From Escherichia phage KEP2, in the sequence record PP047752: a DNA stretch of 64,000 nt; one strand, 5' to 3'. The stretch's first letter is position 1; each line of letters opens with the position of its first letter. Shown here one piece after another: positions 9,513 through 59,286 of this stretch. A program made the position numbers and the translations under genes. A model generated the notes under the pieces. That model saw only the letters and a list, made by a program, of their open reading frames with translations, made no database searches and was not told the DNA's origin.

Positions 9513-9591
9513 TCACTTGTTGACTGATTGTTAAGATGGTGTTAATATTCTTTATGGGTATTCTCACCATCTTGGCTGATGAGGTGATTAA

Positions 9592-11897: not shown

Positions 11898-12413
11898 TTA
11901 TTTAACCTCAAAAACTGGTTCAAGAACCAATATAAAGTCTACACAGTCATCTTCTTCATCCAGAATACCATCAAAGTTCTTAGGAACGAAGTCGAAGAGG
12001 CTCATCACAAAGCAGTCAGAAGTAACCCTGATAGTTCCTCCCATATTCTCTACAGTCAACACTGTACGGCTTTCTTTTACCTCTCTCAGAAGATTACTCA
12101 CAAAGTCATCTAAGAAGTACTTCATCAGTGACTTAAAACCTTTAGGGTAATCTGTACCAGAGTATGTTTCAATCTGAGGTACAAGCTTAACATTTATACT
12201 AGTCTTTGTTAAGAATGTGTTAGAGAACATACTATCAGGTAACTTACAAACAATCTTTCCAGTACCTTCATGTTCAATCTCAACAAAACCAGCTTCATCG
12301 CCACATGTGACTATTTTAAAAGATGCTTCATTCTCATGCTGTGAAGCCATAAACTTTTTAAGCATTTCCTTAAGGAAATCTGCATGAGCATCTTGTAAGT
12401 AGATATCAATCAT
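11898..12413 (-). CDS. hypothetical protein
   Basis: 171-aa ORF, packed in - strand operon. Confidence 0.3.
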   Translation of the reverse strand: MIDIYLQDAHADFLKEMLKKFMASQHENEASFKIVTCGDEAGFVEIEHEGTGKIVCKLPDSMFSNTFLTKTSINVKLVPQIETYSGTDYPKGFKSLMKYFLDDFVSNLLREVKESRTVLTVENMGGTIRVTSDCFVMSLFDFVPKNFDGILDEEDDCVDFILVLEPVFEVK

Positions 12414-14109: not shown

Positions 14110-15210
14110 TTACTCATAATCCCTAATAACGAGGCCAACAGGGAACTGTAAAGAACCCTTACGAGTCATCTTCTGGAACTGAACAGTTAAAGGTTTCCCG
14201 ATAAACTCTTCAGGATGTTCAGCAAGATACTGTTTCTTCTCGTGTGTAGTTTTCCATGAAACATCTACAAAGACGTTAGGAAGAGTCTCTACAACAAACT
14301 TGCCATGACCACGTTTGTCAGTTTTTACACCAGTCACTTTAAACTCTTCCGTGTGCATCTTCTTGTGCTTAATCAAGAAGTATGAACGGTGACAACACTC
14401 ATAGAAGGAGTCTTCAGAGATTGAACGGTACATTGCACCTTCAAACTTAGCTTCAACCCACTTATCATGAGCTTCATCAAACTCCTCCCAAGAGTTCACA
14501 CGGATAGTCTGTACAGGAACCACTCTACAGGTATCACCAAGCTCAATAATGGGTGAGTTATCAATAACTTCACGACGCTCAGGCCAAGTTTTTGAATTGT
14601 CACAGATATCATACCAGTAGAATTTAAGAAGGTGACGTTCTGGGTTGTCAGTATTCTTAATCATAGACACAATATCTTCTAAGTCCCAACCGTGAGCATA
14701 AATCTCACCATCAAAGTCTTCGACTTGTGGATGCAATTTAAGCAACAAAAGCAAATCTGGGATTAGCTCTGCTGGTACGTTGTAAACAGTATTCTCACGA
14801 GAATAAGCCGTGAAACTAACTAAATCAGCATCTCTTGAAATTCTACAACGGACACCATCAAGTTTCGGTTGAGCATCAGCAGGGAACTTCAGATACTTTG
14901 CATGACTAACCTTTGCAGCATCATGAGCAAGCTGCACACCTACCTTTTCAGTATTCTGTGCAGACTCTTTTGTATAAGCATAACCTTTGCGGTCAACTTG
15001 CTTTTTGTACTTAGCAGTAACTTCAAAGAGAGCTTGCTGTTCAGCATTACGCTCATTCTTTTTACCGATGTTTTTAGGTTCTGCTGTATACTCTTCAAAC
15101 ATCATCTTGCCATTTTCTTTACCGTAGGTTGTAATGACTTTGTCACCTACAGCAACGCATGACCAGACGTTAAAAGAACCATCTTTATTCTGTTTGTATA
15201 GTATTGTCAT
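14110..15210 (-). CDS. ATP-dependent DNA ligase
   Basis: Motif I KLDGVR (adenylation lysine); start re-called to MTILYKQ to avoid overlap. Confidence 0.75.
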   Translation of the reverse strand: MTILYKQNKDGSFNVWSCVAVGDKVITTYGKENGKMMFEEYTAEPKNIGKKNERNAEQQALFEVTAKYKKQVDRKGYAYTKESAQNTEKVGVQLAHDAAKVSHAKYLKFPADAQPKLDGVRCRISRDADLVSFTAYSRENTVYNVPAELIPDLLLLLKLHPQVEDFDGEIYAHGWDLEDIVSMIKNTDNPERHLLKFYWYDICDNSKTWPERREVIDNSPIIELGDTCRVVPVQTIRVNSWEEFDEAHDKWVEAKFEGAMYRSISEDSFYECCHRSYFLIKHKKMHTEEFKVTGVKTDKRGHGKFVVETLPNVFVDVSWKTTHEKKQYLAEHPEEFIGKPLTVQFQKMTRKGSLQFPVGLVIRDYE

Positions 15211-15211
15211 T

Positions 15212-15403
15212 TTATTCCTCTGAGTGATACCAAGTATTGCAAGCATTACATGCGTAAAGCTCTAAGTCATTTTTATCTGGTTTATGAAAACAGTTTGCTC
15301 CGCAGTGGCAACGAAATGGCTTTCCACCAACTGTAAGGATGAAGGATTGAACCTTTCCATCAGGAGTTCGTACAGCATTTTTATGTTTATCTTCTTTGTT
15401 CAT
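15212..15403 (-). CDS. small zinc-ribbon protein (paralog A)
   Basis: FRCHCGANCFHKPD...CNACN; paralog of 15728..15931. Confidence 0.4.
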   Translation of the reverse strand: MNKEDKHKNAVRTPDGKVQSFILTVGGKPFRCHCGANCFHKPDKNDLELYACNACNTWYHSEE

Positions 15404-15476
15404 TTTATCTCTTGCCTCACAAGCTATGCAACCTTTTGAGTAGAAGTAGTGCCAAGCACAACCATCAAAGCTCTCT

Positions 15477-15731
15477 TTAGTGATTAATTGAATTTACTAA
15501 TTCCATGTGTTTTTCGTAGAAACATAAACATTTTTTATCTTGCTCATTTATGTAGCTCTCATAAAATTCTGGTGATTCTGGTCTTTCACCAAATGAAATA
15601 ACCTTTAGGTAGTACTTCCCATATGTGGAGCTATCTAACCAAGAGTCAAATAGTAATTTCTTAGTATTAGTCTTTGGAGGGATTACCAAACTTTTCTCAT
15701 ACAATTCCTTCATTTCTTGGGTTATCTTCAT
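15477..15731 (-). CDS. hypothetical protein
   Basis: 84-aa ORF between the two zinc-ribbon paralogs. Confidence 0.3.
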   Translation of the reverse strand: MKITQEMKELYEKSLVIPPKTNTKKLLFDSWLDSSTYGKYYLKVISFGERPESPEFYESYINEQDKKCLCFYEKHMELVNSINH

Positions 15732-15931
15732 TGCATATCCTTAATCTTACCTAAGAACCTTACCCCACAGTTATTACACTCGTATGTGTCTAACTTTGTG
15801 TTATCAGGTTTGTGAAAACAGTTTGACCCACAACGACACCGGAATAGTTTACCATCAACACGAAGAATGAACGTCTCAAGCTCACCCTCTTCTGTAAGAA
15901 CTGCGTTTTTCAATTTATCTCCTACAGTCAT
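15728..15931 (-). CDS. small zinc-ribbon protein (paralog B)
   Basis: FRCRCGSNCFHKPD...CNNCG; clear similarity to 15212..15403 product. Confidence 0.4.
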   Translation of the reverse strand: MTVGDKLKNAVLTEEGELETFILRVDGKLFRCRCGSNCFHKPDNTKLDTYECNNCGVRFLGKIKDMQ

Positions 15932-19954: not shown

Positions 19955-20011
19955 TTTTACTCCCTCTAAAATCATTAACCTCATACATTACTGCAAAAAA
20001 TTATAAAAAGC

Positions 20012-20050
20012 AAGTTGACAATGTGCTTGACAAGGTGTTAATCTTTGCGA
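20012..20050 (+). promoter_or_regulatory. divergent promoter region with tandem TTGACA elements
   Basis: TTGACAatgtgcTTGACAaggtg in 227-bp AT-rich intergenic region between - strand polymerase and + strand operon; -10 not confidently placed. Confidence 0.3.
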
Positions 20051-20211
20051 AGTGGGTTTTTACTTAAAAGGTTACTTAACAGTTTAACTATACAGATACT
20101 TTAAAACTCTTAAAAGATTATTTAATAGCTTTTAAAAAGCTTTAAAGTATAACGTATAGAATACGTTAAGATAAAAGATTAAAACTTAATAGTTACTTAA
20201 AAGAGGCTTAC

Positions 20212-50986: not shown

Positions 50987-51193
50987 ATGATTTACAGCCG
51001 TGAATTGATGGTTACAACCAACGTTAATACAAAGGTAAAACGTTTTTACATGCAAGTGTGCGGCGCATGGCGTAGAATATCAGAAGCTGATTATTGCAAC
51101 TATGTAGAAACGGCAATCAATTCTAATTGCTACCTTACGAAGAATACAAAGCGACATATAAAACAGACAGCGGTTTACTATTACGATATATAA
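50987..51193 (+). CDS. small early-type protein (array gene 1)
   Basis: 68 aa; leader AAATTGGAGATTTAAAAAATG similar to cassette leader. Confidence 0.4.
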   Translation: MIYSRELMVTTNVNTKVKRFYMQVCGAWRRISEADYCNYVETAINSNCYLTKNTKRHIKQTAVYYYDI

Positions 51194-51200
51194 AAAGTAC

Positions 51201-51283
51201 TTTACAGGGGGCTTAAAAGCTGGTATCTTAAGCCCCAGATAAAGAGCTTTACTAAATTAACCCTTAAACTAGGAGATTCAAAA
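51201..51283 (+). promoter_or_regulatory. canonical promoter/stem-loop/leader cassette (copy a)
   Basis: TTTACA-17nt-TATCTT with spacer and -10 inside GGGGCTTAA...TTAAGCCCC hairpin, then AGATAAAGAGCTTTAC...CCTTAAACTAGGAGATTCAAAAATG. Confidence 0.55.
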
Positions 51284-51664
51284 ATGGCTTATCGTGCACC
51301 TAAATTCATCAACAAAGACAACTTTCGCAACGCACTGGAGAAGTCACTTGATGAAAATTTTAAAGGTAACATTATCGTTGTTCACGCATTCAATTTTAAG
51401 TATGATGTAAACGGGAATAGAATCAACCATTACACAGCAACCATGTTAGATGGTACGCTATCAAGTGAAAAAGCTGTACTGAATGCACTTGCAGGACGTG
51501 GTAAAAACCTGATAAGATGCGATAAGAGACGTTATCAGGGTGGCGCATATGGTTATGATGATGCTGTTTATCATCTTGAAAATATGGGCTATTCAGTGGA
51601 AAAAGCTGGAGCGTCTCAAATAATCGGCAGTGACGGCTATGTGACAATTTTCAAAATTAACTAA
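51284..51664 (+). CDS. small early-type protein (array gene 2)
   Basis: 126 aa, cassette-driven. Confidence 0.45.
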   Translation: MAYRAPKFINKDNFRNALEKSLDENFKGNIIVVHAFNFKYDVNGNRINHYTATMLDGTLSSEKAVLNALAGRGKNLIRCDKRRYQGGAYGYDDAVYHLENMGYSVEKAGASQIIGSDGYVTIFKIN

Positions 51665-51672
51665 TAAAGTAC

Positions 51673-51752
51673 TTTACAGGGGGCTTATAGTTCGATAAAG
51701 TAAGCCCCAGATAAAGAGCTTTACCACTAAATCCTAAATTGGAGATTCAAAA
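51673..51752 (+). promoter_or_regulatory. canonical cassette (copy b)
   Basis: TTTACA-GGGGGCTTATagttcgaTAAAGTAAGCCCC-AGATAAAGAGCTTTACC...AAATTGGAGATTCAAAAATG. Confidence 0.55.
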
Positions 51753-52043
51753 ATGGCTATTATTAAAAACGTTGTAATTCCTGCAAAAACTCGTGATGAC
51801 GCTCGCATCATGGCGAAAAAGTTAGGCGGGAAAGTGGTTGACAACGGAAAACAAACTGCTGTAAGGTGGAACGTGAAGGCGGATAAACAAATGAATTTAA
51901 AAAATTCACCAATAAACTTTTTTACATGTGTAAACACTATCGGGAAAACGAATGTATACACTAAAAAGGCATATATCAGACGCATCGCCATGACGTCACC
52001 TATTCGCACAATGAGAAGTCATGCAAAGATGAAAATTAAGTAA
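51753..52043 (+). CDS. small early-type protein (array gene 3)
   Basis: 96 aa, basic. Confidence 0.45.
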   Translation: MAIIKNVVIPAKTRDDARIMAKKLGGKVVDNGKQTAVRWNVKADKQMNLKNSPINFFTCVNTIGKTNVYTKKAYIRRIAMTSPIRTMRSHAKMKIK

Positions 52044-52051
52044 TAGAGTAC

Positions 52052-52133
52052 TTTACAGGGGGCTTAAAAGCTGATATCTTAAGCCCCAGATAAAGAGCTT
52101 TACCACTCAATCCTTAAACTAGGAGATTCAAAA
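52052..52133 (+). promoter_or_regulatory. canonical cassette (copy c)
   Basis: Near-identical to copy a (TTTACA...TATCTTAAGCCCC...CTAGGAGATTCAAAAATG). Confidence 0.55.
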
Positions 52134-52646
52134 ATGAAAACTGTAGACGCTACCTTTGAAGTTGTAAAAGAAAAATTTTCCATCATTTACGAAGCTGTCA
52201 ATTGCTACGAAGCAAGCCATAATCTTGATAATTGGAAGTTTACAGATGACCATCAAGGCGGTGTGACTATTAAAAACCCCAACTGTCAGCGTAATGGATT
52301 TAAATATGCAATTCCTTTACATTACAGCCTTAAACAGCTTTCAATTGACTATGCAAAACAAGGCCGGGAAAATCCATCGAAAGAGGCTTACATCAGCTTA
52401 CAGAAAGAACTAGAAAGAGATTTAGAGGCTTCAGAATATAACATCGCCGCGAAAGTTGTAGATGCAAACGGTAGCACGGTTTTAGAGAGTTTTTATATTG
52501 GTTATGCTTTCGATTGGTGCTACAGTGACGGCGATGATTTAGATGACAGACTAAAAGAGGAAGTGAACAACGCAGACGCAGAATCTGAAGTATTAGAACG
52601 CTTGGAAGCATTAAAAGATTCAGTGATGAATATCTTTAAGAACTAA
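52134..52646 (+). CDS. small early-type protein (array gene 4)
   Basis: 170 aa, acidic C-terminus. Confidence 0.45.
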   Translation: MKTVDATFEVVKEKFSIIYEAVNCYEASHNLDNWKFTDDHQGGVTIKNPNCQRNGFKYAIPLHYSLKQLSIDYAKQGRENPSKEAYISLQKELERDLEASEYNIAAKVVDANGSTVLESFYIGYAFDWCYSDGDDLDDRLKEEVNNADAESEVLERLEALKDSVMNIFKN

Positions 52647-52655
52647 ATAGACCTC

Positions 52656-52737
52656 TTTACACGGGGCTAACAAGCTGATATGATAGCCCCAGATAAAGAG
52701 ATTTATCAAATTAACCCTTAAACTAGGAGATTCTAAA
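52656..52737 (+). promoter_or_regulatory. canonical cassette (copy d)
   Basis: TTTACA-cGGGGCTaacaagctgaTATGATAGCCCC; -10 TATGAT; leader ...CTAGGAGATTCTAAAATG. Confidence 0.55.
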
Positions 52738-53034
52738 ATGAAATTATCAAATAAAGTTAGGGAAAACCTTAGCAAATTACTCAATAAAATTGATTTTATC
52801 GAGACATCAAGAAATAGTCATGATGTTATGGAATGGTTACACGGCAAAATAAAAGGCCGTCGTGTAGTGATTTGCTTATGGAACAGTTGCAGGGAGTATA
52901 AAAAACCTGTATTGCAAGTTAATATATACGATAATACTTTTAAAAGTCCTGTTAAATCTAAAAGTGATTTATTAGAATCTTATGAGATAACTGTAAATGG
53001 CAAGGTATCACGTAAAGAGGTAACACCATGTTAA
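52738..53034 (+). CDS. small early-type protein (array gene 5)
   Basis: 98 aa. Confidence 0.4.
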   Translation: MKLSNKVRENLSKLLNKIDFIETSRNSHDVMEWLHGKIKGRRVVICLWNSCREYKKPVLQVNIYDNTFKSPVKSKSDLLESYEITVNGKVSRKEVTPC

Positions 53035-53360
53035 TGATGGGTATCACTGCAATCATTGCCATTATAGCACTTTATAAGGCTTACAGCGCATATAATTTGG
53101 CAAGTAAGGCAATCACGCAGCAGGTCAATAATAACCTTGTAATGAGCTTTCTGGAGCGTTTAAGCGATGAACAAATAAAACGGTTAGAAATGAGCTTCAG
53201 ATTTCAATCAAAAACTTATCAAATCAGCGACATTTTCAAAGATGATTTTCAGCTTGTCGATGATTATAACTCTCTGATAAATGCTTTAAATATCAGTGAT
53301 TTAAAAGATTATCATGCTGTAATAGTTCAAGAATTGAGCAAACGAAAAAATTCCTCTTGA
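53028..53360 (+). CDS. small membrane protein (array gene 6)
   Basis: N-terminal TM helix MGITAIIAIIALY; ATG overlaps upstream stop. Confidence 0.4.
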   Translation: MLMMGITAIIAIIALYKAYSAYNLASKAITQQVNNNLVMSFLERLSDEQIKRLEMSFRFQSKTYQISDIFKDDFQLVDDYNSLINALNISDLKDYHAVIVQELSKRKNSS

Positions 53361-53370
53361 TTTTGGTTTT

Positions 53371-53448
53371 TAAAACAAGTAAATTACTAATCAACGGGAG
53401 GTAATAACCTCCCCACTAAGTAAAGTCCTTAAACTAGGAGATTCAAAA
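53371..53448 (+). promoter_or_regulatory. variant cassette (copy e)
   Basis: AAAACAAGTAAATTACTAATCAACGGGAGGtaataaCCTCCCCACTAAGTAAAGTCCTTAAACTAGGAGATTCAAAAATG; different hairpin, same 3' leader. Confidence 0.45.
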
Positions 53449-53721
53449 ATGTATACTACTAACAACGGTCGCACTTTGAACGTAACCCTGCGCCACTATG
53501 TGAACGGTGTAATGCACTTCGAGGATTTACAAGCCGAACAACATATCTTGGATTGGCAAGTAGCAGGACTCCAAAAAACTGCTACAGGATACGGGAAAAA
53601 GATTCCAACTAGTTGGAAAGTATACTACGAAGGGCGTTTGCGCAGAATTTATCAAGATGTATACAGTAATAGCGCATCAAGTTACATCATAGTAAAAGGT
53701 AAAAAGCTGCATTTAGTATAA
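53449..53721 (+). CDS. small early-type protein (array gene 7)
   Basis: 90 aa. Confidence 0.4.
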   Translation: MYTTNNGRTLNVTLRHYVNGVMHFEDLQAEQHILDWQVAGLQKTATGYGKKIPTSWKVYYEGRLRRIYQDVYSNSASSYIIVKGKKLHLV

Positions 53722-53726
53722 AGTAC

Positions 53727-53806
53727 TTTACAAGGGGCTTATAGTTCGATAAAGTAAGCCCCAGATAAAGAGCTTTATCACTCAATCCTAAATTGGAGAT
53801 TCTAAA
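53727..53806 (+). promoter_or_regulatory. canonical cassette (copy f)
   Basis: TTTACAaGGGGCTTATagttcgaTAAAGTAAGCCCC-AGATAAAGAGCTTTATC...GGAGATTCTAAAATG. Confidence 0.55.
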
Positions 53807-54211
53807 ATGGCTATTAATAACCGTGAGTTATCAATCTTAAAAGCACGTTTGACCGTTAACCGGATTAATGTTATTACATCATCAGCACCGGATGAGACAT
53901 TGCACAACATTATCGGGAAGATTCAAAGTGTTATCTTAGACGTTGAAAACGTAAAAAACTCATTGGCTGACGTTGCAGCAGGTATCACGCTAGACGGCGC
54001 ACAATATGAAATGGCTGACATGTTAGGCAAATCTAAGGTAATGAATAAAGAGCTTGATTTAAAAATGTTTCGTTTTGCTGTTAAAGTGTGGCTATCTGTC
54101 GAGTATGACGCAAATTTTGCAATCGCTGACTTTTTCGCAACATGGTTGCAACGTAATTTAACAAATCATGATTTTCGTGATATCTGCGATATAATTTACG
54201 CAGAACTCTAA
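53807..54211 (+). CDS. small early-type protein (array gene 8)
   Basis: 134 aa. Confidence 0.4.
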   Translation: MAINNRELSILKARLTVNRINVITSSAPDETLHNIIGKIQSVILDVENVKNSLADVAAGITLDGAQYEMADMLGKSKVMNKELDLKMFRFAVKVWLSVEYDANFAIADFFATWLQRNLTNHDFRDICDIIYAEL

Positions 54212-54218
54212 AAAACTG

Positions 54219-54312
54219 TTGACACGGATTTTTAGATAGATTAAATTACGCATTAACGGGGAGGGAATGAACTTCCCCACTAAATAAAGTCCTTAAACTA
54301 GGAGATTCTAGA
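54219..54312 (+). promoter_or_regulatory. variant cassette (copy g) with explicit TTGACA-17-TAAATT promoter
   Basis: TTGACA 54219-54224, TAAATT 54242-54247, then GGGGAGGGaatgaaCTTCCCC hairpin and CCTTAAACTAGGAGATTCTAGAATG leader. Confidence 0.5.
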
Positions 54313-54510
54313 ATGGCTATCATTAACGGCTTAAACATTGAAACTACTCACATCAAAGATATCAAAGTTGGCGATATAGTCCTTTTTCACGGCGTAGAAA
54401 AAACTGTTACTGCAAAGGATATTAAAGAGGATTCTTTCATGGGTAGGACTCTCTTCGGTGATTCTTATTGCTTAGGTTATCTTGCAGTTTTAAAAGTTGT
54501 CAAACATTAA
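54313..54510 (+). CDS. small early-type protein (array gene 9)
   Basis: 65 aa. Confidence 0.4.
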   Translation: MAIINGLNIETTHIKDIKVGDIVLFHGVEKTVTAKDIKEDSFMGRTLFGDSYCLGYLAVLKVVKH

Positions 54511-54523
54511 CTAATAAAGTACT

Positions 54524-54603
54524 TTACAAGGGGCTTATAGTTCGATAAAGTAAGCCCCAGATAAAGAGCTTTACCACTAAATCCTAAACTGGAGATTCAA
54601 AAA
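54524..54603 (+). promoter_or_regulatory. canonical cassette (copy h)
   Basis: Same as copy f/b family. Confidence 0.55.
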
Positions 54604-55167
54604 ATGAAATGCTATCACGGTACTACCCTCAAAAACTTTGTAAACCTGCTGAATGGTGGCGACAAGCCGGAAGGTATCTGGAACTGCTCCTACATGGACG
54701 ATTGTTTCTATGTTTACCCAATGAATAAGATTATCAAAACGGAATGTCTGGAAGATGAGGAAGATTCTTACATCCGTGAACGCTGCATTCAAAACGCTTT
54801 AGAATCGGGGCTTATCACGGCAGCTTTCCAAATGGAAACGCAGGAAATAATTGTCATTGAAATGGATATCCCAGAGGAAGAACTTGAGGACGATTATTCT
54901 TGCGACAACATGAGCGATATCGCCAGCTTTACCGGACACTTTGATAAGGATTGGATTATCGGCCTTCACTCGACGAAATTTAGTGCGATGTATGCGCCTT
55001 TCTTTGTACCGGATGCAACTAATCGCAATTTAGGCTATGTTGACGATGATTTGTTAACTATGGCGAAAATTGTACAGAATAGCGGTGATTCTTCTGTGTA
55101 TTGTGACCTACTGGATAAAATCACGGCAAACATCACAGAGCGCAATTTAAAAGACTTTTTAGGTTAA
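54604..55167 (+). CDS. acidic early-type protein (array gene 10)
   Basis: 187 aa, strongly D/E-rich. Confidence 0.45.
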   Translation: MKCYHGTTLKNFVNLLNGGDKPEGIWNCSYMDDCFYVYPMNKIIKTECLEDEEDSYIRERCIQNALESGLITAAFQMETQEIIVIEMDIPEEELEDDYSCDNMSDIASFTGHFDKDWIIGLHSTKFSAMYAPFFVPDATNRNLGYVDDDLLTMAKIVQNSGDSSVYCDLLDKITANITERNLKDFLG

Positions 55168-55194
55168 TCAGTACAAAGACACCAACTTCCAACT

Positions 55195-55230
55195 TAAGGC
55201 CCGTACAGGGCCATTTAGAGGGCTTCAATC
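55195..55230 (+). promoter_or_regulatory. divergent cassette (copy i): GGCCCgtacaGGGCC hairpin + TAGAGGG SD
   Basis: No canonical leader; hairpin directly upstream of gene. Confidence 0.3.
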
Positions 55231-55464
55231 ATGCTTACAACCATTTACCTCATCCTTTCCATTTGTAATGGTCATTCATGCGATTTTAAAGGGCTTGAGG
55301 AGTTTACAGGGAGTAAAGAAAATGTTATTCATGCCTGTCAGATAGCAAGGCAAGACTATCCCGCCAGTGATGATATACAATGTTACTTTAAGACAGAAGA
55401 TGAAGACGGCGTCTATTTTGACAGTGTCGATGGTCAATATGAAATTATCATTGAAAAAGACTAG
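55231..55464 (+). CDS. small early-type protein (array gene 11)
   Basis: 77 aa. Confidence 0.4.
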   Translation: MLTTIYLILSICNGHSCDFKGLEEFTGSKENVIHACQIARQDYPASDDIQCYFKTEDEDGVYFDSVDGQYEIIIEKD

Positions 55465-55477
55465 ACAAGCCTGATAA

Positions 55478-55551
55478 AAGTCTGTAAATTGTCAATCAAC
55501 GGGAGGGATGACCTCCTACTAAACAAAATCCTTAAACTAGGAGATTCGAAA
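55478..55551 (+). promoter_or_regulatory. variant cassette (copy j)
   Basis: CTGTAAATTGTCAATCAACGGGAGGGatgaCCTCCtACTAAACAAAATCCTTAAACTAGGAGATTCGAAA. Confidence 0.45.
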
Positions 55552-55893
55552 ATGGCTTATGTAACCGTAATTACCAATAAAGAAGATTCATCTTGGTCAA
55601 CTCAAGTAAGTGACAAGATGTCACCTATGCAGTGCCTAAAATACTTTGAGCAATGGAACAAAGGTGAGGAAACAAGCCCCTTTCAAGTAATGCAGATTAT
55701 CCATACAGACAACGAAGGGAATAAAACTGTTTTGAATAGTGAGTACTATGCAACCAGATTCGAAACGAGAAGTAAAGCAATGAAGCTCTTACGTGAATCC
55801 GGTTATTCTCATATTGCCGCGCTAATCTGGGATGACCTCCTAAAAAGTCAGCGTATCAGTTATGTAAAACCTGAAAAAATATTCATCAGTTAA
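55552..55893 (+). CDS. small early-type protein (array gene 12)
   Basis: ATG directly after cassette leader; ORF-track upstream extension (55489) runs through the cassette and is rejected. Confidence 0.45.
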   Translation: MAYVTVITNKEDSSWSTQVSDKMSPMQCLKYFEQWNKGEETSPFQVMQIIHTDNEGNKTVLNSEYYATRFETRSKAMKLLRESGYSHIAALIWDDLLKSQRISYVKPEKIFIS

Positions 55894-55931
55894 TCAACAA
55901 CTTACAAAAAACTTTTAAAAAAGTGTTGACA

Positions 55932-56113
55932 ATGCCCCTTGACATTGGTAACTTTGTTCGAGGGGGTTTATCTAAAAGGGATTAACTTAAAAGATTCTTT
56001 ATAGATAAACTTAAAAAATTGCTTGCAATCAGATATCAAAACAAGTAAATTACTAATCAACGGGAGGGATAACCTCCCCACTAAGTAAAGTCCTTAAACT
56101 AGGAGATTCAAAA
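55932..56113 (+). promoter_or_regulatory. extended variant cassette (copy k) with tandem TTGACA boxes
   Basis: GTTGACAATGCCCCTTGACA (same arrangement as 20012-20031) then AAAACAAGTAAATTACTAATCAACGGGAGGGataaCCTCCCC...CTAGGAGATTCAAAAATG. Confidence 0.45.
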
Positions 56114-56644
56114 ATGAACAAATTTCAAGCTATCAATTACATCCGCTCAAATAGTGTTATGTCAAAGCCTGTTAAAGACACCTATGAATTTCGTTGCAAT
56201 GGTGTACACTTTGCAACCATCACCAAATCAGAAAACGGGGCTTATTACGTTCATCGCCGTAATGTTGCAACCGTTGTAGTCTCTCACTTTATGCAAGCTG
56301 TCGCGGAACTTCTCCCGATGTTTTTAGGGCTTTACTTAGATGAGTGTAAGCACATTCATAACCATGTTAAAAGCCTTTTAAACGGTTATAAAATGGCTTA
56401 TGAGCGTTCTATCAAGTCCTTAAACAAGTTTTACAACGCACCTGAAAACACCGTATCAATGGCATACGCTGTAAAGGGTGAGGCGGTGAGTCTCTTCGAA
56501 GTGGAAGAAATCGAGCTTTATGACCATCGCCCCAATGGTTACGCTAAAACTCTCGGTGAAGGTTTAACGTTCAATATCAAGAACTTAGAAAAAACTTTAA
56601 AAGATATTGAAAAAGATATTGACGAGACAATCAAAAGTCTGTAA
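56114..56644 (+). CDS. early-type protein (array gene 13)
   Basis: 176 aa. Confidence 0.45.
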   Translation: MNKFQAINYIRSNSVMSKPVKDTYEFRCNGVHFATITKSENGAYYVHRRNVATVVVSHFMQAVAELLPMFLGLYLDECKHIHNHVKSLLNGYKMAYERSIKSLNKFYNAPENTVSMAYAVKGEAVSLFEVEEIELYDHRPNGYAKTLGEGLTFNIKNLEKTLKDIEKDIDETIKSL

Positions 56645-56649
56645 ATTGT

Positions 56650-56712
56650 CAATCAACGGGGAGGGAATGACCTTCCCCACTAAATAAAGTCCTTAAACTA
56701 GGAGATTCTAAA
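56650..56712 (+). promoter_or_regulatory. variant cassette (copy l)
   Basis: TTGTCAATCAACGGGGAGGGaatgaCCTTCCCCACTAAATAAAGTCCTTAAACTAGGAGATTCTAAAATG. Confidence 0.45.
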
Positions 56713-56961
56713 ATGGCAACTATCCGCGCAATTGTAAATTCTTATGGCTGCTACACTCTGGACGTTAAATTTGATATAGGTGGGACCGATGAGTGTTTCG
56801 AACTGGTGAAAACAGTCATTAAACAAGTTATCCCAGACTATAACCCTACTGATGACTTCTGGAAAGATGCAGTAAAAGAGGCGTTGAACGATGAATATCA
56901 TTACCATTATTGGGGTGATTTGATTGTCTCCCTGTACTACAATAAACAAGGTTGCAACTAA
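56713..56961 (+). CDS. small early-type protein (array gene 14)
   Basis: 82 aa. Confidence 0.4.
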   Translation: MATIRAIVNSYGCYTLDVKFDIGGTDECFELVKTVIKQVIPDYNPTDDFWKDAVKEALNDEYHYHYWGDLIVSLYYNKQGCN

Positions 56962-56998: not shown

Positions 56999-57021
56999 AG
57001 CCCCTTAAATGGGGCTTTTTT
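56999..57021 (+). terminator. intrinsic terminator ending the small-gene array
   Basis: AGCCCC-ttaaat-GGGGCT followed by TTTTT; preceded by degenerate cassette-like hairpin GGGGCaaatAGCCCCAGATACC. Confidence 0.55.
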
Positions 57022-57374
57022 ACGTCTTATCAAATCCTATACAATCCTTTTCCTTTCCTTTCCAGAGTCTTACTAGACCTTAAAAGCAATAACTCTATAG
57101 CTTACTCTATAACCTTTTATCAAATCAACTTAAATATAAGCCCATAACCCGAAAGGGAAGGGCAACCGTTTAAACGCTCTATAAAGCTCTATAACAGCCT
57201 TATCAACCTAACTTAAGGGATTGCATTAACTCACCCTTAAAAGCCCTTTATAAAGCTTCCTAGAGCCTTAAAAGAATCTTATAAGGGTGTAAGCTTTATT
57301 ATCTCGTTAGTATCTTGTGAACTACTAAAAAGGGGCTTGTTAGTTACTAAAAAGTATGTTATAGGGGCTATAAA

Positions 57375-57516
57375 GTTACGTAAAAGTAGCTTAAAAGTTA
57401 CGTAAAAGTAGCTTAAAAGTTACGTAAAAGTAGCTTAAAAGTTACGTAAAAGTAGCTTAAAAGTTACGTAAAAGTAGCTTAAAAGTTACGTAAAAGTAGC
57501 TTAAAAGTTACGTAAA
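57375..57516. repeat. 22-bp direct tandem repeat GTTACGTAAAAGTAGCTTAAAA x6 plus partial
   Basis: Six perfect units 57375-57506 and a 10-bp partial; each unit has palindromes TTACGTAA and AGCT. Confidence 0.9.
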
Positions 57517-57573
57517 TGCTAGCCCCCTTAACATTTTCTTAACAATCCCTACATAGTTATGCTTTTAAGGCAC

Positions 57574-58110
57574 TTGTTAGCAACTTGTTAAATCTCTGTT
57601 AAAACCATGTAAAAGCCTTGTAAGAGTCTTTGGCATAGCCTTTAAAGCCCCTGAAAAGCCTTATAAAGAGGTGTCTACATAGTTGGGGTGCAATTACTAG
57701 GGAGAGACTAAAAAGAGCTTATAAGGAGTTATAAAGAGCTTTTAAAAGGGCTATTTAAAAGGTCACTAAGAGGGAAAGGGAACGATAAGAAAAGAGATAG
57801 TGACCATGTTAATAGCTTGTTAAAAAGGTTAAACACTTGTTAGGAACTTGTTAATTATCTTAACAAAATAACTCTTTAAAATTAACTTGTTAGCTCTTGT
57901 TAGTCATCTGTTAAGCCTCTGTAAAGACTATGTATCAACTGTTAAGAAACTGTTACCCTCTTGTTAAAACTGTTAAGAATCTGTTAAGACCTTTGAAGAG
58001 ATGTTAAGAAGATGTATCAACTGTTAAGAGATTGTTAATGATATTTTAAAATTCTGCAAAGGGGATGTTACAGGGATGTTAAGGGCTACCAAGCAGATAT
58101 ACATCTTCTA
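57574..58110. repeat. dense cluster of short direct motifs (C/T)TGTTAA(G/A), more than 20 copies
   Basis: e.g. ACTTGTTAGCAACTTGTTAAATCTCTGTTAAAACC; ATGTATCAACTGTTAAGA occurs twice (~57925 and ~58008); non-coding. Confidence 0.7.
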
Positions 58111-58538
58111 CAGATATTTTTGAGTTCCTTCAAAGACCCTAAAAAATGACTTGACAACTCTATTTTATAAAAATTTTAAAATTCTGAATAATTACCTATA
58201 CAGTCTTTTAAAAATACAGGCATAAACAGGCTTATAAGATACCTTGTTAGTACCGTGTTAGACCTTGTGAGATAAGGTCTTTAAAGATATTCCTGTTAAG
58301 TTTGTTAAAACAGTCTATATAGAGGCTTAGTAATACCTAGTGAACACCTATAGAGGGTAACATAGCTGACATAGAGATTAAGAGGTGTATAGGGGCTTCT
58401 AAGAGGGTGTAGAGGAATGGTTAAGGTGATTGTATAGGTTGTTAAGAAGGCTTGTTAGAGGGCTATTTAGAAGGGCTATACAGAGGGACTATTAAGACCA
58501 CTAGATAGATACTAAGATACTATATAGTACTATATAAC

Positions 58539-58556
58539 TATATATATATATATATA
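58539..58556. repeat. (TA)9 dinucleotide repeat within AT-rich TACTATATA-type sequence
   Basis: TATATATATATATATATA; candidate DNA-unwinding element. Confidence 0.7.
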
Positions 58557-58658
58557 GAGAGTAAGCTTAAGAAGGTTGTTAAGAAGGATAGATATTTTAT
58601 TCACATATGATGGTGACCCAGAGGTTGGGACAACCGATGAAATTTTATAAAAAAATTA

Positions 58659-58691
58659 AAAAGCCCCCAATTAAGGAGGCTCTTAAGATAT
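58659..58691 (-). terminator. intrinsic terminator for the - strand block
   Basis: On - strand: AGCCUCC-uuaauu-GGGGGCU followed by UUUUUAAUUUUUUU. Confidence 0.5.
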
Positions 58692-58692
58692 T

Positions 58693-59286
58693 TTAAATCA
58701 GTGTTTCCAGAACTGTCTTCAGTGATGACTTGGTTGTCTGATAAAAATGAGTAAATCCATTGTTGTTATCGAATACCTGCATCATGATATCATCTCCCTT
58801 GATTGGGTACACTCGGATATCATAGTGGAACCCATTAAATACAGCAGAACCATTACAGAATGAACTGAAATCATCCACTGAGATATACTCCTCATGCCCT
58901 GTGATTTTTATACAGATACCCTTACTCGGTCTCTTAGGGTTAATATCTTCCATCACAGACATATTCTGTCCACCAAGAGATACCATAGTGACCACTTTAC
59001 GATTTTTCTGTCTAAAGTACATCTTAACTTTCTGTAAAGTGTCTTCATAGAACGGATAAGACCTTTCTACAAAGATTCCTTCAAGTGGCTCTTTACCATT
59101 TTCAACTTCTCTGTTATGCCGTACTGCAAAGATAATTTGTTGGAACCAGTCAAGATTTTCTTCGGATAGTGCTTCTCGAATATCATTCCAGTCAAGGACT
59201 AGGTAGTTGCCTTCAACTTCTTTTAAGTTATCTTTTTCCATATCTATCACACCATTATCGTAAAACTTGGTAATCTGGTACTGCAA
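58693..59286 (-). CDS. hypothetical protein
   Basis: 197-aa ORF, last gene of - strand block. Confidence 0.35.
   Translation of the reverse strand: MQYQITKFYDNGVIDMEKDNLKEVEGNYLVLDWNDIREALSEENLDWFQQIIFAVRHNREVENGKEPLEGIFVERSYPFYEDTLQKVKMYFRQKNRKVVTMVSLGGQNMSVMEDINPKRPSKGICIKITGHEEYISVDDFSSFCNGSAVFNGFHYDIRVYPIKGDDIMMQVFDNNNGFTHFYQTTKSSLKTVLETLI

What the first reader, a model, noticed from the sequence alone, without database searches (positions are those of the whole stretch)
57023..58658. 1.6-kb non-coding, repeat-dense region between convergent transcription units: candidate origin or packaging/terminus region
No credible ORF lies between the terminator ending the + strand array (56999-57021) and the - strand terminator (58659-58691). 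The region instead holds short CCTTT repeats, six and a half 22-bp tandem iterons, more than 20 TGTTAAG-type motifs, an AT-rich block with (TA)9, and TTGACA-like boxes. Iterons plus an AT-rich unwinding element is the classic signature of a replication origin; alternatively this is the terminase recognition site or lies next to the physical genome ends.
Basis: partly seen in the sequence, partly recalled or inferred. Interest (0 to 1): 0.7.

Follow-up and report, generated by a model that had tools for sequence, protein, structure and literature searches.

The report
Phage genome ends (terminal repeat) region
This gene-free, repeat-rich stretch is where the linear DNA of a Felix O1-type phage begins and ends (a ~570-bp terminal repeat plus its conserved flanks), which was already mapped experimentally in close relatives, and nothing here shows it to be a replication origin.

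Summary
The window is a Felix O1-like myovirus (Felixounavirus) genome. The described features are real. There is a 1.6-kb ORF-free gap between convergent terminators. It holds a perfect 22-bp x6.6 tandem array and 26 same-strand TGTTAR motifs (about 2.7 expected), and the whole region has a strong 11-bp periodicity.

The gap contains the physical genome ends. The 608-bp direct terminal repeat (DTR) of the relative UAB_Phi87, mapped by Bal31 digestion and run-off sequencing, aligns to window 57527-58092. Several independent GenBank genomes start at the equivalent of 57522 and carry exact end duplications that stop at 58090. The boundary sequences are nearly invariant across Felixounavirus and Mooglevirus. 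The right boundary is the only DNA homology to an Erwinia relative in this neighbourhood.

The "iterons" are a strain-specific expansion: the 12 relatives aligned have only a few diverged units. DnaA boxes are not enriched, and PHROGs names no function, initiator included, for nine flanking genes.

Best reading: this is the concatemer junction and terminase cutting region of a short-DTR phage. The phased TGTTAAG arrays are probably a protein-binding platform for packaging; that step is inferred. An additional origin function is not excluded. The feature is already known in kind and location, so interest is modest.

The parts
56999..57021 (+). Intrinsic terminator that closes the + strand gene array.
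   Evidence: stem of 6 pairs (5 G-C) followed by a T-run.
57023..57371 (.). Left flank. In the virion this is unique sequence at the right end of the genome, just before the right DTR copy. It is conserved non-coding DNA that is C/T-rich on the + strand. It carries CTTAAAAG / CTTATAAG / CTTTATAAAG elements at 10-11-bp spacing and TTTCC x3 at 57049-57063.
   Evidence: Column conservation is 0.79-0.97 across 13 phages. Lag 10/11 autocorrelation z is 3.2/3.4. CTT-N2-AAG positions are listed. GC skew is -0.17.
57372..57516 (+). Perfect 22-bp x6.6 tandem array (AAAGTTACGTAAAAGTAGCTTA; each unit is two diverged 11-mers, each with an A4 tract, and contains the palindrome TTACGTAA). It is a strain-specific copy-number expansion of a conserved element that ends 5 bp before the left DTR boundary.
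   Evidence: TRF. In the alignment, the 12 relatives lack 55-121 bp here and keep only a few diverged units. The last 15 bp (AAGTTACGTAAATGC) are nearly invariant.
57522..58090 (+). Homologue of the direct terminal repeat, about 569 bp (boundaries +/- 2-8 nt depending on the mapping method). In virion DNA this segment is expected at both ends. In concatemers one copy joins two unit genomes.
   Evidence: The exact 581-bp end duplication of PP892526.1 maps to 57522-58090. The DTR annotated in UAB_69 maps to 57520-58092. The HP1 repeat_region 1-570 maps up to 58090. The UAB_Phi87 DTR sequence from Fig. S1 aligns to 57527-58092. 254 records match this segment at 281 places.
57520..57557 (-). Left boundary block TAGCCCCCTTAACATTTTCTTAACAATCCCTACATAG. 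It holds two reverse-oriented motif copies (CTTAACA is the reverse complement of TGTTAAG); relatives have three. It partly mirrors the right boundary.
   Evidence: Nearly invariant in 13 phages. Inverted-repeat pair I7 joins 57525-57550 and 58060-58085, 73% complementary. The window has an 11-bp deletion here relative to its relatives.
57573..58085 (+). Forward-oriented YTGTTAR motif arrays inside the DTR: three copies at 57573-57602 and a dense block at 57805-58085. Spacings are mostly 9-11, 20 or 22 bp.
   Evidence: 19 + strand PWM hits in the DTR. Lag-11 autocorrelation z = 10.4.
58060..58106 (+). Right boundary block GGGGATGTTACAGGGATGTTAAGGGCTACC|AAGCAGATATACATC.
   Evidence: Nearly invariant in 13 phages. 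It lies within 57977-58103, the only blastn match to Erwinia phage phiEa104 between window positions 55001 and 61500.
58100..58249 (.). AT-rich block immediately outside the right DTR boundary. It contains the single exact TTGACA.
   Evidence: Minimum GC 0.188 in 80-bp windows; 58120-58215 has GC 0.229. Conservation is 0.91-0.95.
58243..58658 (+). Right flank. In the virion this is unique sequence at the left end, after the left DTR copy. It has further forward TGTTAR motifs (pairs starting at 58245/58256, 58294/58303 and 58440/58453, and a single one at 58577), 13-bp G-rich repeats (TTAGAGGGCTAT) at 58455-58497, and a variable (TA)n run at 58521-58556.
   Evidence: GC skew is +0.28 to +0.39. 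Conservation is 0.84-0.97, falling to 0.69 at the TA run.
58659..58691 (-). Intrinsic terminator that closes the - strand gene array.
   Evidence: stem of 10 pairs followed by a T-run.

Best explanation
The region is the genome-terminus (concatemer-junction) region of a Felix O1-like phage that packages DNA with short, exact direct terminal repeats.

Window 57522-58090 is the DTR. In replicating concatemers one DTR copy joins neighbouring unit genomes. The terminase cuts at or near the two nearly invariant boundary sequences. The repeat is then duplicated by DNA synthesis, as in the T7-type model. Every virion DNA therefore starts with TA|GCCCCCTTAACA... and ends with ...GTTAAGGGCTACC(AA).

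The terminators on both sides keep the two convergent transcription units out of this DNA.

The dense, same-orientation, helically phased TGTTAAG arrays, with reversed copies exactly at the left boundary, are most likely the binding platform for the small terminase or another packaging or end-binding protein. The 22-bp array is a recent copy-number expansion of an element just outside the left boundary, not a set of conserved iterons.

Shown: homology to mapped termini, the boundary positions, conservation, phasing and motif enrichment. Inferred: that this particular phage has the same ends, the cutting and duplication mechanism, and which protein binds the motifs.
For: 1. The window is a Felixounavirus. 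256 phage records match, the best at 94% identity, and the gene content fits.

2. For UAB_Phi87, Bal31 digestion and run-off sequencing of virion DNA gave a 608-bp DTR. Its printed sequence aligns to window 57527-58092.

3. PP892526.1, from a paper reporting PhageTerm DTRs, has an exact 581-bp duplication at both record ends that equals window 57522-58090. The 618-bp 'DTR' feature of UAB_69 equals 57520-58092. The Mooglevirus HP1 repeat_region 1-570 ends at the equivalent of 58090.

4. In an evenly spaced sample of 60 matching records, 8 are opened within about 40 nt of the left boundary and 1 at the right boundary. 254 records hold the DTR at 281 places, and five of the 60 rows shown for that search have two places in the record, four of them with the match shown lying at a record end.

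5. The non-coding region is at least as conserved as neighbouring genes. Column conservation is 0.85-0.97, against 0.62-0.80 at the gene edges. It aligns contiguously at 78% with Mooglevirus, whereas the adjacent genes align only in fragments.

6. The boundaries are nearly invariant.

7. Indels are quantised at 11, 22, 55, 77, 99 and 121 bp, and lag-11 autocorrelation gives z = 10.4.

8. The motif and the architecture persist in Erwinia phage phiEa104, where background sequence identity is lost. All 12 TGTTAAG in a 6.1-kb locus lie in its syntenic non-coding gap, all on the + strand.
Against: No sequencing reads or virion DNA of this particular phage are available, so its ends are inferred by homology.

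The boundary nucleotide differs by 2-8 nt between mapping methods: AACATTTT versus GCCCCC versus TAGCCCCC on the left, and ...CTACC versus ...CTACCAA on the right.

No protein has been shown to bind the motifs, and the terminase genes lie outside the window.

Single-strand folding shows no hairpins at the boundaries (z = +0.35 and +1.38), so a T7-like hairpin-primed step has no support here.

The second motif family (CTTAAAAG) also occurs in other intergenic regions of the genome, so it is not specific to the terminus.
Confidence: 0.85

Rival explanations
1. Iteron-type replication origin. A phage or host initiator binds the 22-bp repeats and/or the TGTTAAG arrays and opens the adjacent AT-rich block. 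This could act instead of, or in addition to, the terminus function.
For: Repeats plus an AT-rich block (58100-58249, minimum GC 0.19) resemble origin architecture. The region is transcriptionally insulated and under purifying selection. By analogy, T7 has secondary origins near its ends; this rests on my own knowledge and was not checked here.
Against: The 22-bp array is not conserved in copy number; relatives have only a few diverged units. It lies about 580 bp from the AT-rich block. DnaA boxes are not enriched: 1 with at most one mismatch against 0.6 expected, and 3 with at most two mismatches against 7.1 expected. PHROGs assigns no function to any of the nine flanking genes scanned. The GC-skew switch here coincides with the change of transcription direction, so it is uninformative. 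An even more AT-rich divergent intergenic region with the same motif vocabulary lies next to the DNA polymerase and primase-helicase genes at 19985-20211 and is at least as good a candidate.
Confidence: 0.12
2. The motif arrays form a binding or bending platform for a host nucleoid protein or an end-protecting protein that acts on injected DNA, for example a shield against RecBCD or an ejection or injection control element. They would not be terminase recognition sites.
For: Phased A-tracts and an 11-bp periodicity favour curved DNA, which many nucleoid proteins prefer. The arrays sit at both physical ends. The PhageMaP paper suggests that the related phage Bas63 lacks a RecBCD inhibitor.
Against: There is no direct evidence. 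Motif orientation is strongly one-sided and flips exactly at a cut site, which fits a polar packaging machine better than non-specific nucleoid binding.
Confidence: 0.1
3. Functionless spacer: slippage-prone simple-sequence DNA that accumulated between two convergent operons.
For: Indels are whole 11-bp units, and the 22-bp array is a perfect, recent expansion.
Against: Conservation is higher than at the adjacent gene edges across two genera. The boundaries are nearly invariant. The motif is kept in Erwinia phages. Termini mapped experimentally lie inside it.
Confidence: 0.02

Closest known systems
Direct terminal repeats of Felix O1-like phages: UAB_Phi87 (608 bp, Bardina et al. 2016, PMC4837284), UAB_69 (618 bp, OL656108), Pr103Blw (581 bp, PMC8303462) and vB_EcoM_I14.1 (PP892526.1)
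   Same: This is orthologous sequence in the same syntenic gap between the same convergent gene arrays, with the same boundary sequences.
   Different: The window's DTR is slightly shorter (about 569 bp) because whole 11-bp units are missing. It also carries a 6.6-copy expansion of the 22-bp element just outside the left boundary, which the relatives lack. The papers read here, checked by term searches, do not describe the phased motif architecture.
T7/T3 concatemer junction: terminal repeat flanked by short-repeat arrays, with pac and cleavage signals
   Same: It has a short exact DTR, one copy per concatemer junction that is duplicated during packaging (general model cited in PMC10438801). 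The DTR is flanked by arrays of short repeats. I recall T7's CCTAAAG-type SRL/SRR arrays from memory; this was not checked here.
   Different: There is no sequence relationship, and this is a myovirus rather than a podovirus. The DTR is 3-4 times longer than T7's 160 bp (figure from memory). Genes converge on the junction, whereas in T7 they run through one end. No hairpin potential was found at the boundaries.
Multi-site terminase recognition regions: lambda cosB R sites, P1 pac hexamer repeats, SPP1 pacL/pacR
   Same: Repeated short motifs flank a cleavage site, and their phasing and predicted bending suggest DNA wrapping on an oligomeric small terminase. This is an analogy from my own knowledge.
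   Different: Those systems produce cohesive or headful-permuted ends, not exact DTRs. There are far more motif copies here (about 26), spread over about 1 kb. Binding is untested.
Iteron-type replication origins (lambda ori, P1 oriR, pSC101)
   Same: Direct repeats and an AT-rich stretch lie in non-coding DNA.
   Different: Iteron number is not conserved. The repeats and the AT-rich block are not adjacent. No adjacent gene has a recognisable function, initiator included (nine scanned). DnaA boxes are not enriched.

Membership tests
Short exact DTR genome terminus of Ounavirinae (Felix O1-like phages) | Sequence homologous to a DTR mapped experimentally on virion DNA | tested here: met
   The UAB_Phi87 Fig. 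S1 sequence aligns to window 57527-58092 at 82% identity. The text extraction holds 590 of the 608 nt. The mapping method is described.
Short exact DTR genome terminus of Ounavirinae (Felix O1-like phages) | Same boundaries in independent genomes that carry exact duplications at both record ends | tested here: met
   PP892526.1 positions 1-581 equal its last 581 nt and map to window 57522-58090. UAB_69 and HP1 annotations agree within 2 nt. Further records start at the same point.
Short exact DTR genome terminus of Ounavirinae (Felix O1-like phages) | Boundary sequences conserved across the group | tested here: met
   The 13-phage alignment shows both boundaries nearly invariant. The right boundary is the only DNA homology to phiEa104 in the stretch compared.
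Short exact DTR genome terminus of Ounavirinae (Felix O1-like phages) | Two-fold read coverage and read-start pile-ups, or Bal31-sensitive end fragments, in this phage's own virion DNA | not testable with these tools
   No reads or DNA are available for the window's phage. Only relatives have such data.
Short exact DTR genome terminus of Ounavirinae (Felix O1-like phages) | Large terminase belongs to the DTR-type clade | not tested
   terL was not identified in the window; in UAB_Phi87 it lies beside the tRNA cluster, and the window has no tRNA genes. Bardina et al. report that Felix O1-like TerL proteins form their own DTR cluster.
Iteron-type replication origin | Conserved array of several iterons | tested here: not met
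   The 6.6 identical copies occur only in the window. The 12 relatives have only a few diverged units.
Iteron-type replication origin | AT-rich unwinding element adjacent to the iterons | tested here: inconclusive
   An AT-rich block exists at 58100-58249, but it lies about 580 bp from the 22-bp array. It is adjacent to TGTTAR motifs.
Iteron-type replication origin | Initiator gene next to or overlapping the origin | tested here: inconclusive
   Nine flanking genes match only PHROG families of unknown function. Absence of annotation is not absence of an initiator.
Iteron-type replication origin | Host initiator (DnaA) boxes | tested here: not met
   With at most one mismatch there is 1 box against 0.6 expected. 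With at most two mismatches there are 3 against 7.1 expected.
Iteron-type replication origin | Replication initiates here (marker frequency, plasmid assay) | not testable with these tools
   This needs an experiment.
cos site or headful pac site | Cohesive ends, or circularly permuted ends with an under-represented pac fragment | not testable with these tools
   For the relative UAB_Phi87, heating did not change the restriction pattern, and Bal31 removed two defined fragments. That indicates defined, non-cohesive ends.
T7-type concatemer junction | Hairpin-forming sequence at a DTR boundary for primed duplication | tested here: not met
   DNA folding of both boundaries gives z = +0.35 and +1.38 against shuffles.

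The most novel reading that the evidence does not exclude
The ~1.6-kb insulated gap is a dedicated 'terminus organiser', conserved across the Ounavirinae genera examined here (Felixounavirus, Mooglevirus, Suspvirus, Kolesnikvirus). About 26 unidirectional, helically phased TGTTAAG sites flip orientation exactly at the left cut site. A second family of phased CTT-N2-AAG sites accompanies them. Length change is tolerated only in whole 11-bp turns. Together these would wrap an oligomeric packaging or end-binding protein into a large nucleoprotein complex that sets both cuts about 570 bp apart. The same vocabulary in the AT-rich divergent region at 20.0-20.2 kb might link packaging to replication or early-promoter control through one protein. 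Architecture of this kind has not been described for DTR myoviruses in the papers I could search.
Probability: 0.3. Interest if true: 0.55.

Novelty: already known. Interest (0 to 1): 0.3.

Why it matters
The practical value is for annotation. This phage's genome should be opened at about window 57522, and its DTR (57522-58090) should be annotated. Most of the roughly 250 related GenBank records leave this region unannotated or call spurious small ORFs in it.

The biological value is limited but real. The sequences that direct terminase cutting in short-DTR myoviruses are poorly defined. The nearly invariant boundaries and the phased TGTTAAG arrays give concrete targets for mutagenesis. They would also help in designing packaging signals for engineered Felix O1-type phages and for transducing particles used in Salmonella and E. 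coli diagnostics.

Tried and rejected
1. Non-coding RNA. An Rfam scan at a permissive E-value gave only two sub-threshold chance hits. The whole window has no tRNA or tmRNA.

2. Promoter cluster. Sigma-70-like sites are at the chance level.

3. Termini in the tRNA region. The UAB_Phi87 record JN225449.1 has a 542-bp duplication at its ends, which does not map to the window, and this briefly suggested the ends lay elsewhere. I rejected it because the published DTR sequence lies internally in that record, at 15151-15749, and is homologous to this region. The record-end duplication is therefore most likely an assembly overlap. The arithmetic fits: 87603 - 542 + 608 = 87669, the size given in the paper.

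4. Hairpins or cruciforms at the DTR boundaries or in the 22-bp array. None is better than shuffles.

5. DnaA boxes. Not enriched.

6. Left flank as a mirror image of the TGTTAAG array. A PWM scan shows it is not (3 + and 3 - weak hits). It uses a different motif family.

7. CTTAAAAG as a terminus-specific signal. Rejected, because 11 of its 24 other occurrences in the window are in other intergenic regions.

8. Literature on an origin, transcripts or essentiality of this region in Felix O1-like phages. Nothing was found. The Bas63 PhageMaP library targeted genes only.

Full report
**What the window is**

The window is most of the genome of a Felix O1-like myovirus (genus Felixounavirus). The 1.9 kb around the finding matches 256 phage records, almost all Felixounavirus or Mooglevirus. 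The best match is Escherichia phage SME50 at 94% identity. Gene content agrees: baseplate and tail-fibre genes, DNA ligase, DNA polymerase, primase-helicase, NrdA, NrdD, NAMPT, rIIA and rIIB, followed by many small genes of unknown function.

**The observation**

- Between 57023 and 58658 there is no ORF of 50 aa or more.
- The region is bracketed by an intrinsic terminator on the + strand (56999-57021) and one on the - strand (58659-58691).
- The + strand genes end at 56961 and the - strand genes end at 58693, so two transcription units converge here.
- Tandem Repeats Finder reports a 22-bp unit in 6.6 copies with 100% matches at 57372-57516. It also reports TTTCC x3 at 57049-57063, a (TA)n run at 58521-58556, and several imperfect arrays of period 10-13.
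- TGTTAR occurs 26 times on the + strand and 3 times on the - strand inside the region, against about 2.7 expected from the rest of the window. The consensus is a-a-C-T-TGTTA-A/G-g-a-a.
- A second family, CTT-N2-AAG (CTTAAAAG, CTTATAAG, CTTTAAAG), occurs 19 times against 2.4 expected.
- The whole region is periodic at 10-12 bp. Lag-11 autocorrelation gives z = 10.4 in the central part, against 1-2 in coding controls.
- The 'TTGACA-like boxes' are the one item not above chance: 11 promoter-like sites against 10.8 +/- 3.5 in shuffles.

**The decisive evidence comes from relatives**

Bardina et al. (PMC4837284) treated virion DNA of the Felix O1-like phage UAB_Phi87 with Bal31. They saw two defined restriction fragments disappear, saw no heat-dissociable cos ends, and sequenced off the ends to define a 608-bp direct terminal repeat. 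Their Figure S1 prints the repeat. It aligns to window 57527-58092.

Independent records agree:
- PP892526.1 comes from a paper reporting PhageTerm DTRs. It has an exact 581-bp duplication at both record ends, and this maps to window 57522-58090.
- The UAB_69 record annotates a 618-bp 'DTR' that maps to 57520-58092.
- The Mooglevirus HP1 record opens with a 570-bp repeat_region whose end maps to 58090.
- Another Felixounavirus, Pr103Blw, has a 581-bp DTR by PhageTerm.

In an evenly spaced sample of 60 of the 261 matching records, 8 are opened within about 40 nt of the left boundary and one at the right boundary. Chance would give about 0.03.

The DTR alone matches 254 records at 281 places. 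Five of the 60 rows shown for that search have two places in the record; for four of them the match shown lies at a record end.

I was briefly misled by the UAB_Phi87 GenBank record. It has a 542-bp duplication at its ends in the tRNA region. The real DTR is internal in that record (15151-15749), so the end duplication is most likely an assembly overlap.

**Anatomy in window coordinates**

In the virion, the DNA is expected to start at about 57522 (TA|GCCCCCTTAACATTTTCTTAACAA...). It would run rightwards through the - strand genes, around the genome and back through the + strand genes. It would then pass the left flank (57023-57371) and the 22-bp array (57372-57516), and end with a second copy of 57522-58090 (...GGGATGTTAAGGGCTACC).

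The left boundary carries two reversed motif copies (CTTAACA); relatives carry three. From 57573 onwards nearly all copies point forward, with the densest block at 57805-58085 running up to the right boundary. The two boundary blocks are partial mirror images: TAGCCCCCTTAACAT... on the left and ...ATGTTAAGGGCTA on the right (I7). Because the motif is so common, this pairing is not unique.

Just outside the right boundary lies an AT-rich block (58100-58249, minimum GC 0.19). After it come more forward motifs (three closely spaced pairs and a single copy), 13-bp G-rich repeats and the TA run.

**Conservation**

I aligned 13 phages: the window, ten Felixounavirus genomes including Felix O1, wV8, VpaE1 and UAB_69, and two Mooglevirus genomes, Moogle and KMM4. 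The non-coding region scores 0.85-0.97 column conservation. The adjacent gene edges score 0.62-0.80.

Both DTR boundaries are nearly invariant.

Indels are strongly quantised. Among gaps longer than 2 bp, the commonest lengths are 11, 12, 22 and 23, and the larger ones are 55, 77, 99 and 121. Length therefore changes by whole helical turns.

The 22-bp array is the exception to conservation. The relatives have only a few diverged units where the window has 6.6 identical ones. This makes it a recent, strain-specific copy-number expansion. Only its last unit, which abuts the boundary (AAGTTACGTAAATGC), is conserved.

**The Erwinia relative**

In Erwinia phage phiEa104 (genus Kolesnikvirus) the syntenic gap between the same convergent arrays is also about 1.4 kb and non-coding. 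Across the 6.5 kb of the window compared, the only blastn match to it is window 57977-58103, the right DTR boundary. All 12 TGTTAAG in that 6.1-kb locus lie in its gap, and all are on the + strand. The motif and the layout have therefore outlived the background sequence, which argues for function.

**Mechanism**

Shown:
- The region holds the orthologue of mapped genome ends.
- It is insulated from transcription.
- It is under purifying selection.
- It is built from phased, polar motif arrays whose polarity flips at one cut site.

Inferred:
- As in other short-DTR phages, concatemers carry one DTR per junction. The terminase cuts at both boundaries and the repeat is duplicated by synthesis (general model as cited in PMC10438801).
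- The phased TGTTAAG arrays are the binding platform of the small terminase or another packaging or end-binding protein. DNA would wrap around an oligomer, which would explain why only whole-turn indels survive.

I found no hairpin potential at the boundaries, so a T7-style hairpin-primed step is not indicated.

**The origin reading**

The features that suggested an origin do not behave like one.
- The 'iterons' are not conserved.
- They lie about 580 bp from the AT-rich block.
- DnaA boxes are not enriched.
- PHROGs assigns no function to any of the nine flanking genes scanned.
- The GC-skew turn coincides with the change in transcription direction.

An even more AT-rich divergent intergenic region lies at 19985-20211. 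It sits between the DNA polymerase gene and the operon that contains the primase-helicase gene. It carries tandem TTGACA boxes and the same CTTAAAAG/GTTAC vocabulary. It is at least as plausible an origin. Neither site can be tested here, so an extra origin role for the terminus region stays open at low probability.

**Comparison and novelty**

This is the same thing as the published DTRs of UAB_Phi87 and UAB_69 and the PhageTerm DTRs of other felixounaviruses, so it is already known in kind and in location. It works like the T7/T3 concatemer junction: a short exact DTR flanked by short-repeat arrays. It shares no sequence with T7, sits in a myovirus, is longer, and has genes converging on it.

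Two things may be new descriptively. I did not find either in the papers available to me.
- The fine structure: polar, phased TGTTAAG arrays that flip at the left cut site, 11-bp-quantised evolution, and conservation down to Erwinia phages.
- The strain-specific expansion of the 22-bp unit.

**Verdict**

Interest is modest, at 0.3.

Noticed in passing
window 51191-56718: Repeated intergenic cassettes lie upstream of at least 8 small + strand genes. Each has a G+C-rich hairpin (e.g. CTTTACAGGGGGCTTAAAAGCTG..TAAGCCCC, or CGGGAGGGA..CCTCCCC) followed by a conserved leader CCTTAAACTAGGAGATTC(A/T)AAAATG. They probably correspond to the 57-bp direct repeats noted in the Felix O1 paper.
   Followed up: partly
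window 19985-20211: This is the AT-richest spot of the window (minimum GC 0.175). It is a divergent intergenic region between the DNA polymerase gene (- strand) and the + strand operon that contains the primase-helicase gene. It has tandem TTGACAA boxes 12 bp apart, three CTTAAAAG, and CTTAAAAGGTTAC words that resemble the 22-bp unit. It is an alternative origin or early-promoter candidate.
   Followed up: partly
window 9516-9566: Right after the tail-fibre gene stop there are three TGTT(G/A)A-type units at 11-bp spacing (CTTGTTGACTGATTGTTAAGATGGTGTTAATATTC). They also read as a good sigma-70-like promoter (TTGACT, 17-nt spacer, TAATAT). A second same-strand pair 11 bp apart lies at 12207/12218, inside a gene.
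   Followed up: partly
alignment insertions at window 57333 and 58109 (L006, L016, L017, L020; L013, L015, L016, L019): A polymorphic hairpin-like insert of about 25 bp is present in some relatives at two different sites just outside the DTR. At 57333 it reads CTATGAGATAGGAATCTATCGAATCC (about 190 bp left of the left boundary). At 58109 it reads ATGAGGTAGATTCTACCGAATCAACT (about 18 bp right of the right boundary). The window has neither. It might be a tiny mobile or duplicated element.
   Followed up: no
JN225449.1 (L004, L005): The UAB_Phi87 GenBank record has an exact 542-bp duplication at its two ends, inside the tRNA region. This is not the published DTR, which lies internally at 15151-15749. 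The duplication is probably an assembly overlap left in the record.
   Followed up: yes
GU169904.1, 135900-136464: The 147-kb record named 'Staphylococcus phage SA1' holds an 87.6% match to this Felix O1-type DTR. This suggests a chimeric or contaminated assembly.
   Followed up: no
PP892526.1 (L007, L008): The record's taxonomy line says Demerecviridae; Tequintavirus. Its sequence is collinear with this Felixounavirus region at about 92% identity, so the label is probably swapped.
   Followed up: no
L012 2110-3538 (Erwinia phage phiEa104): The syntenic non-coding gap in this Kolesnikvirus has the same three-part layout. Its left flank, however, uses a different repeated word, CTTCTAA(A/G), about 15 copies, where the window has CTTAAAAG/CTTATAAAG. 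By homology of the boundary blocks its DTR would be about 430 bp.
   Followed up: partly
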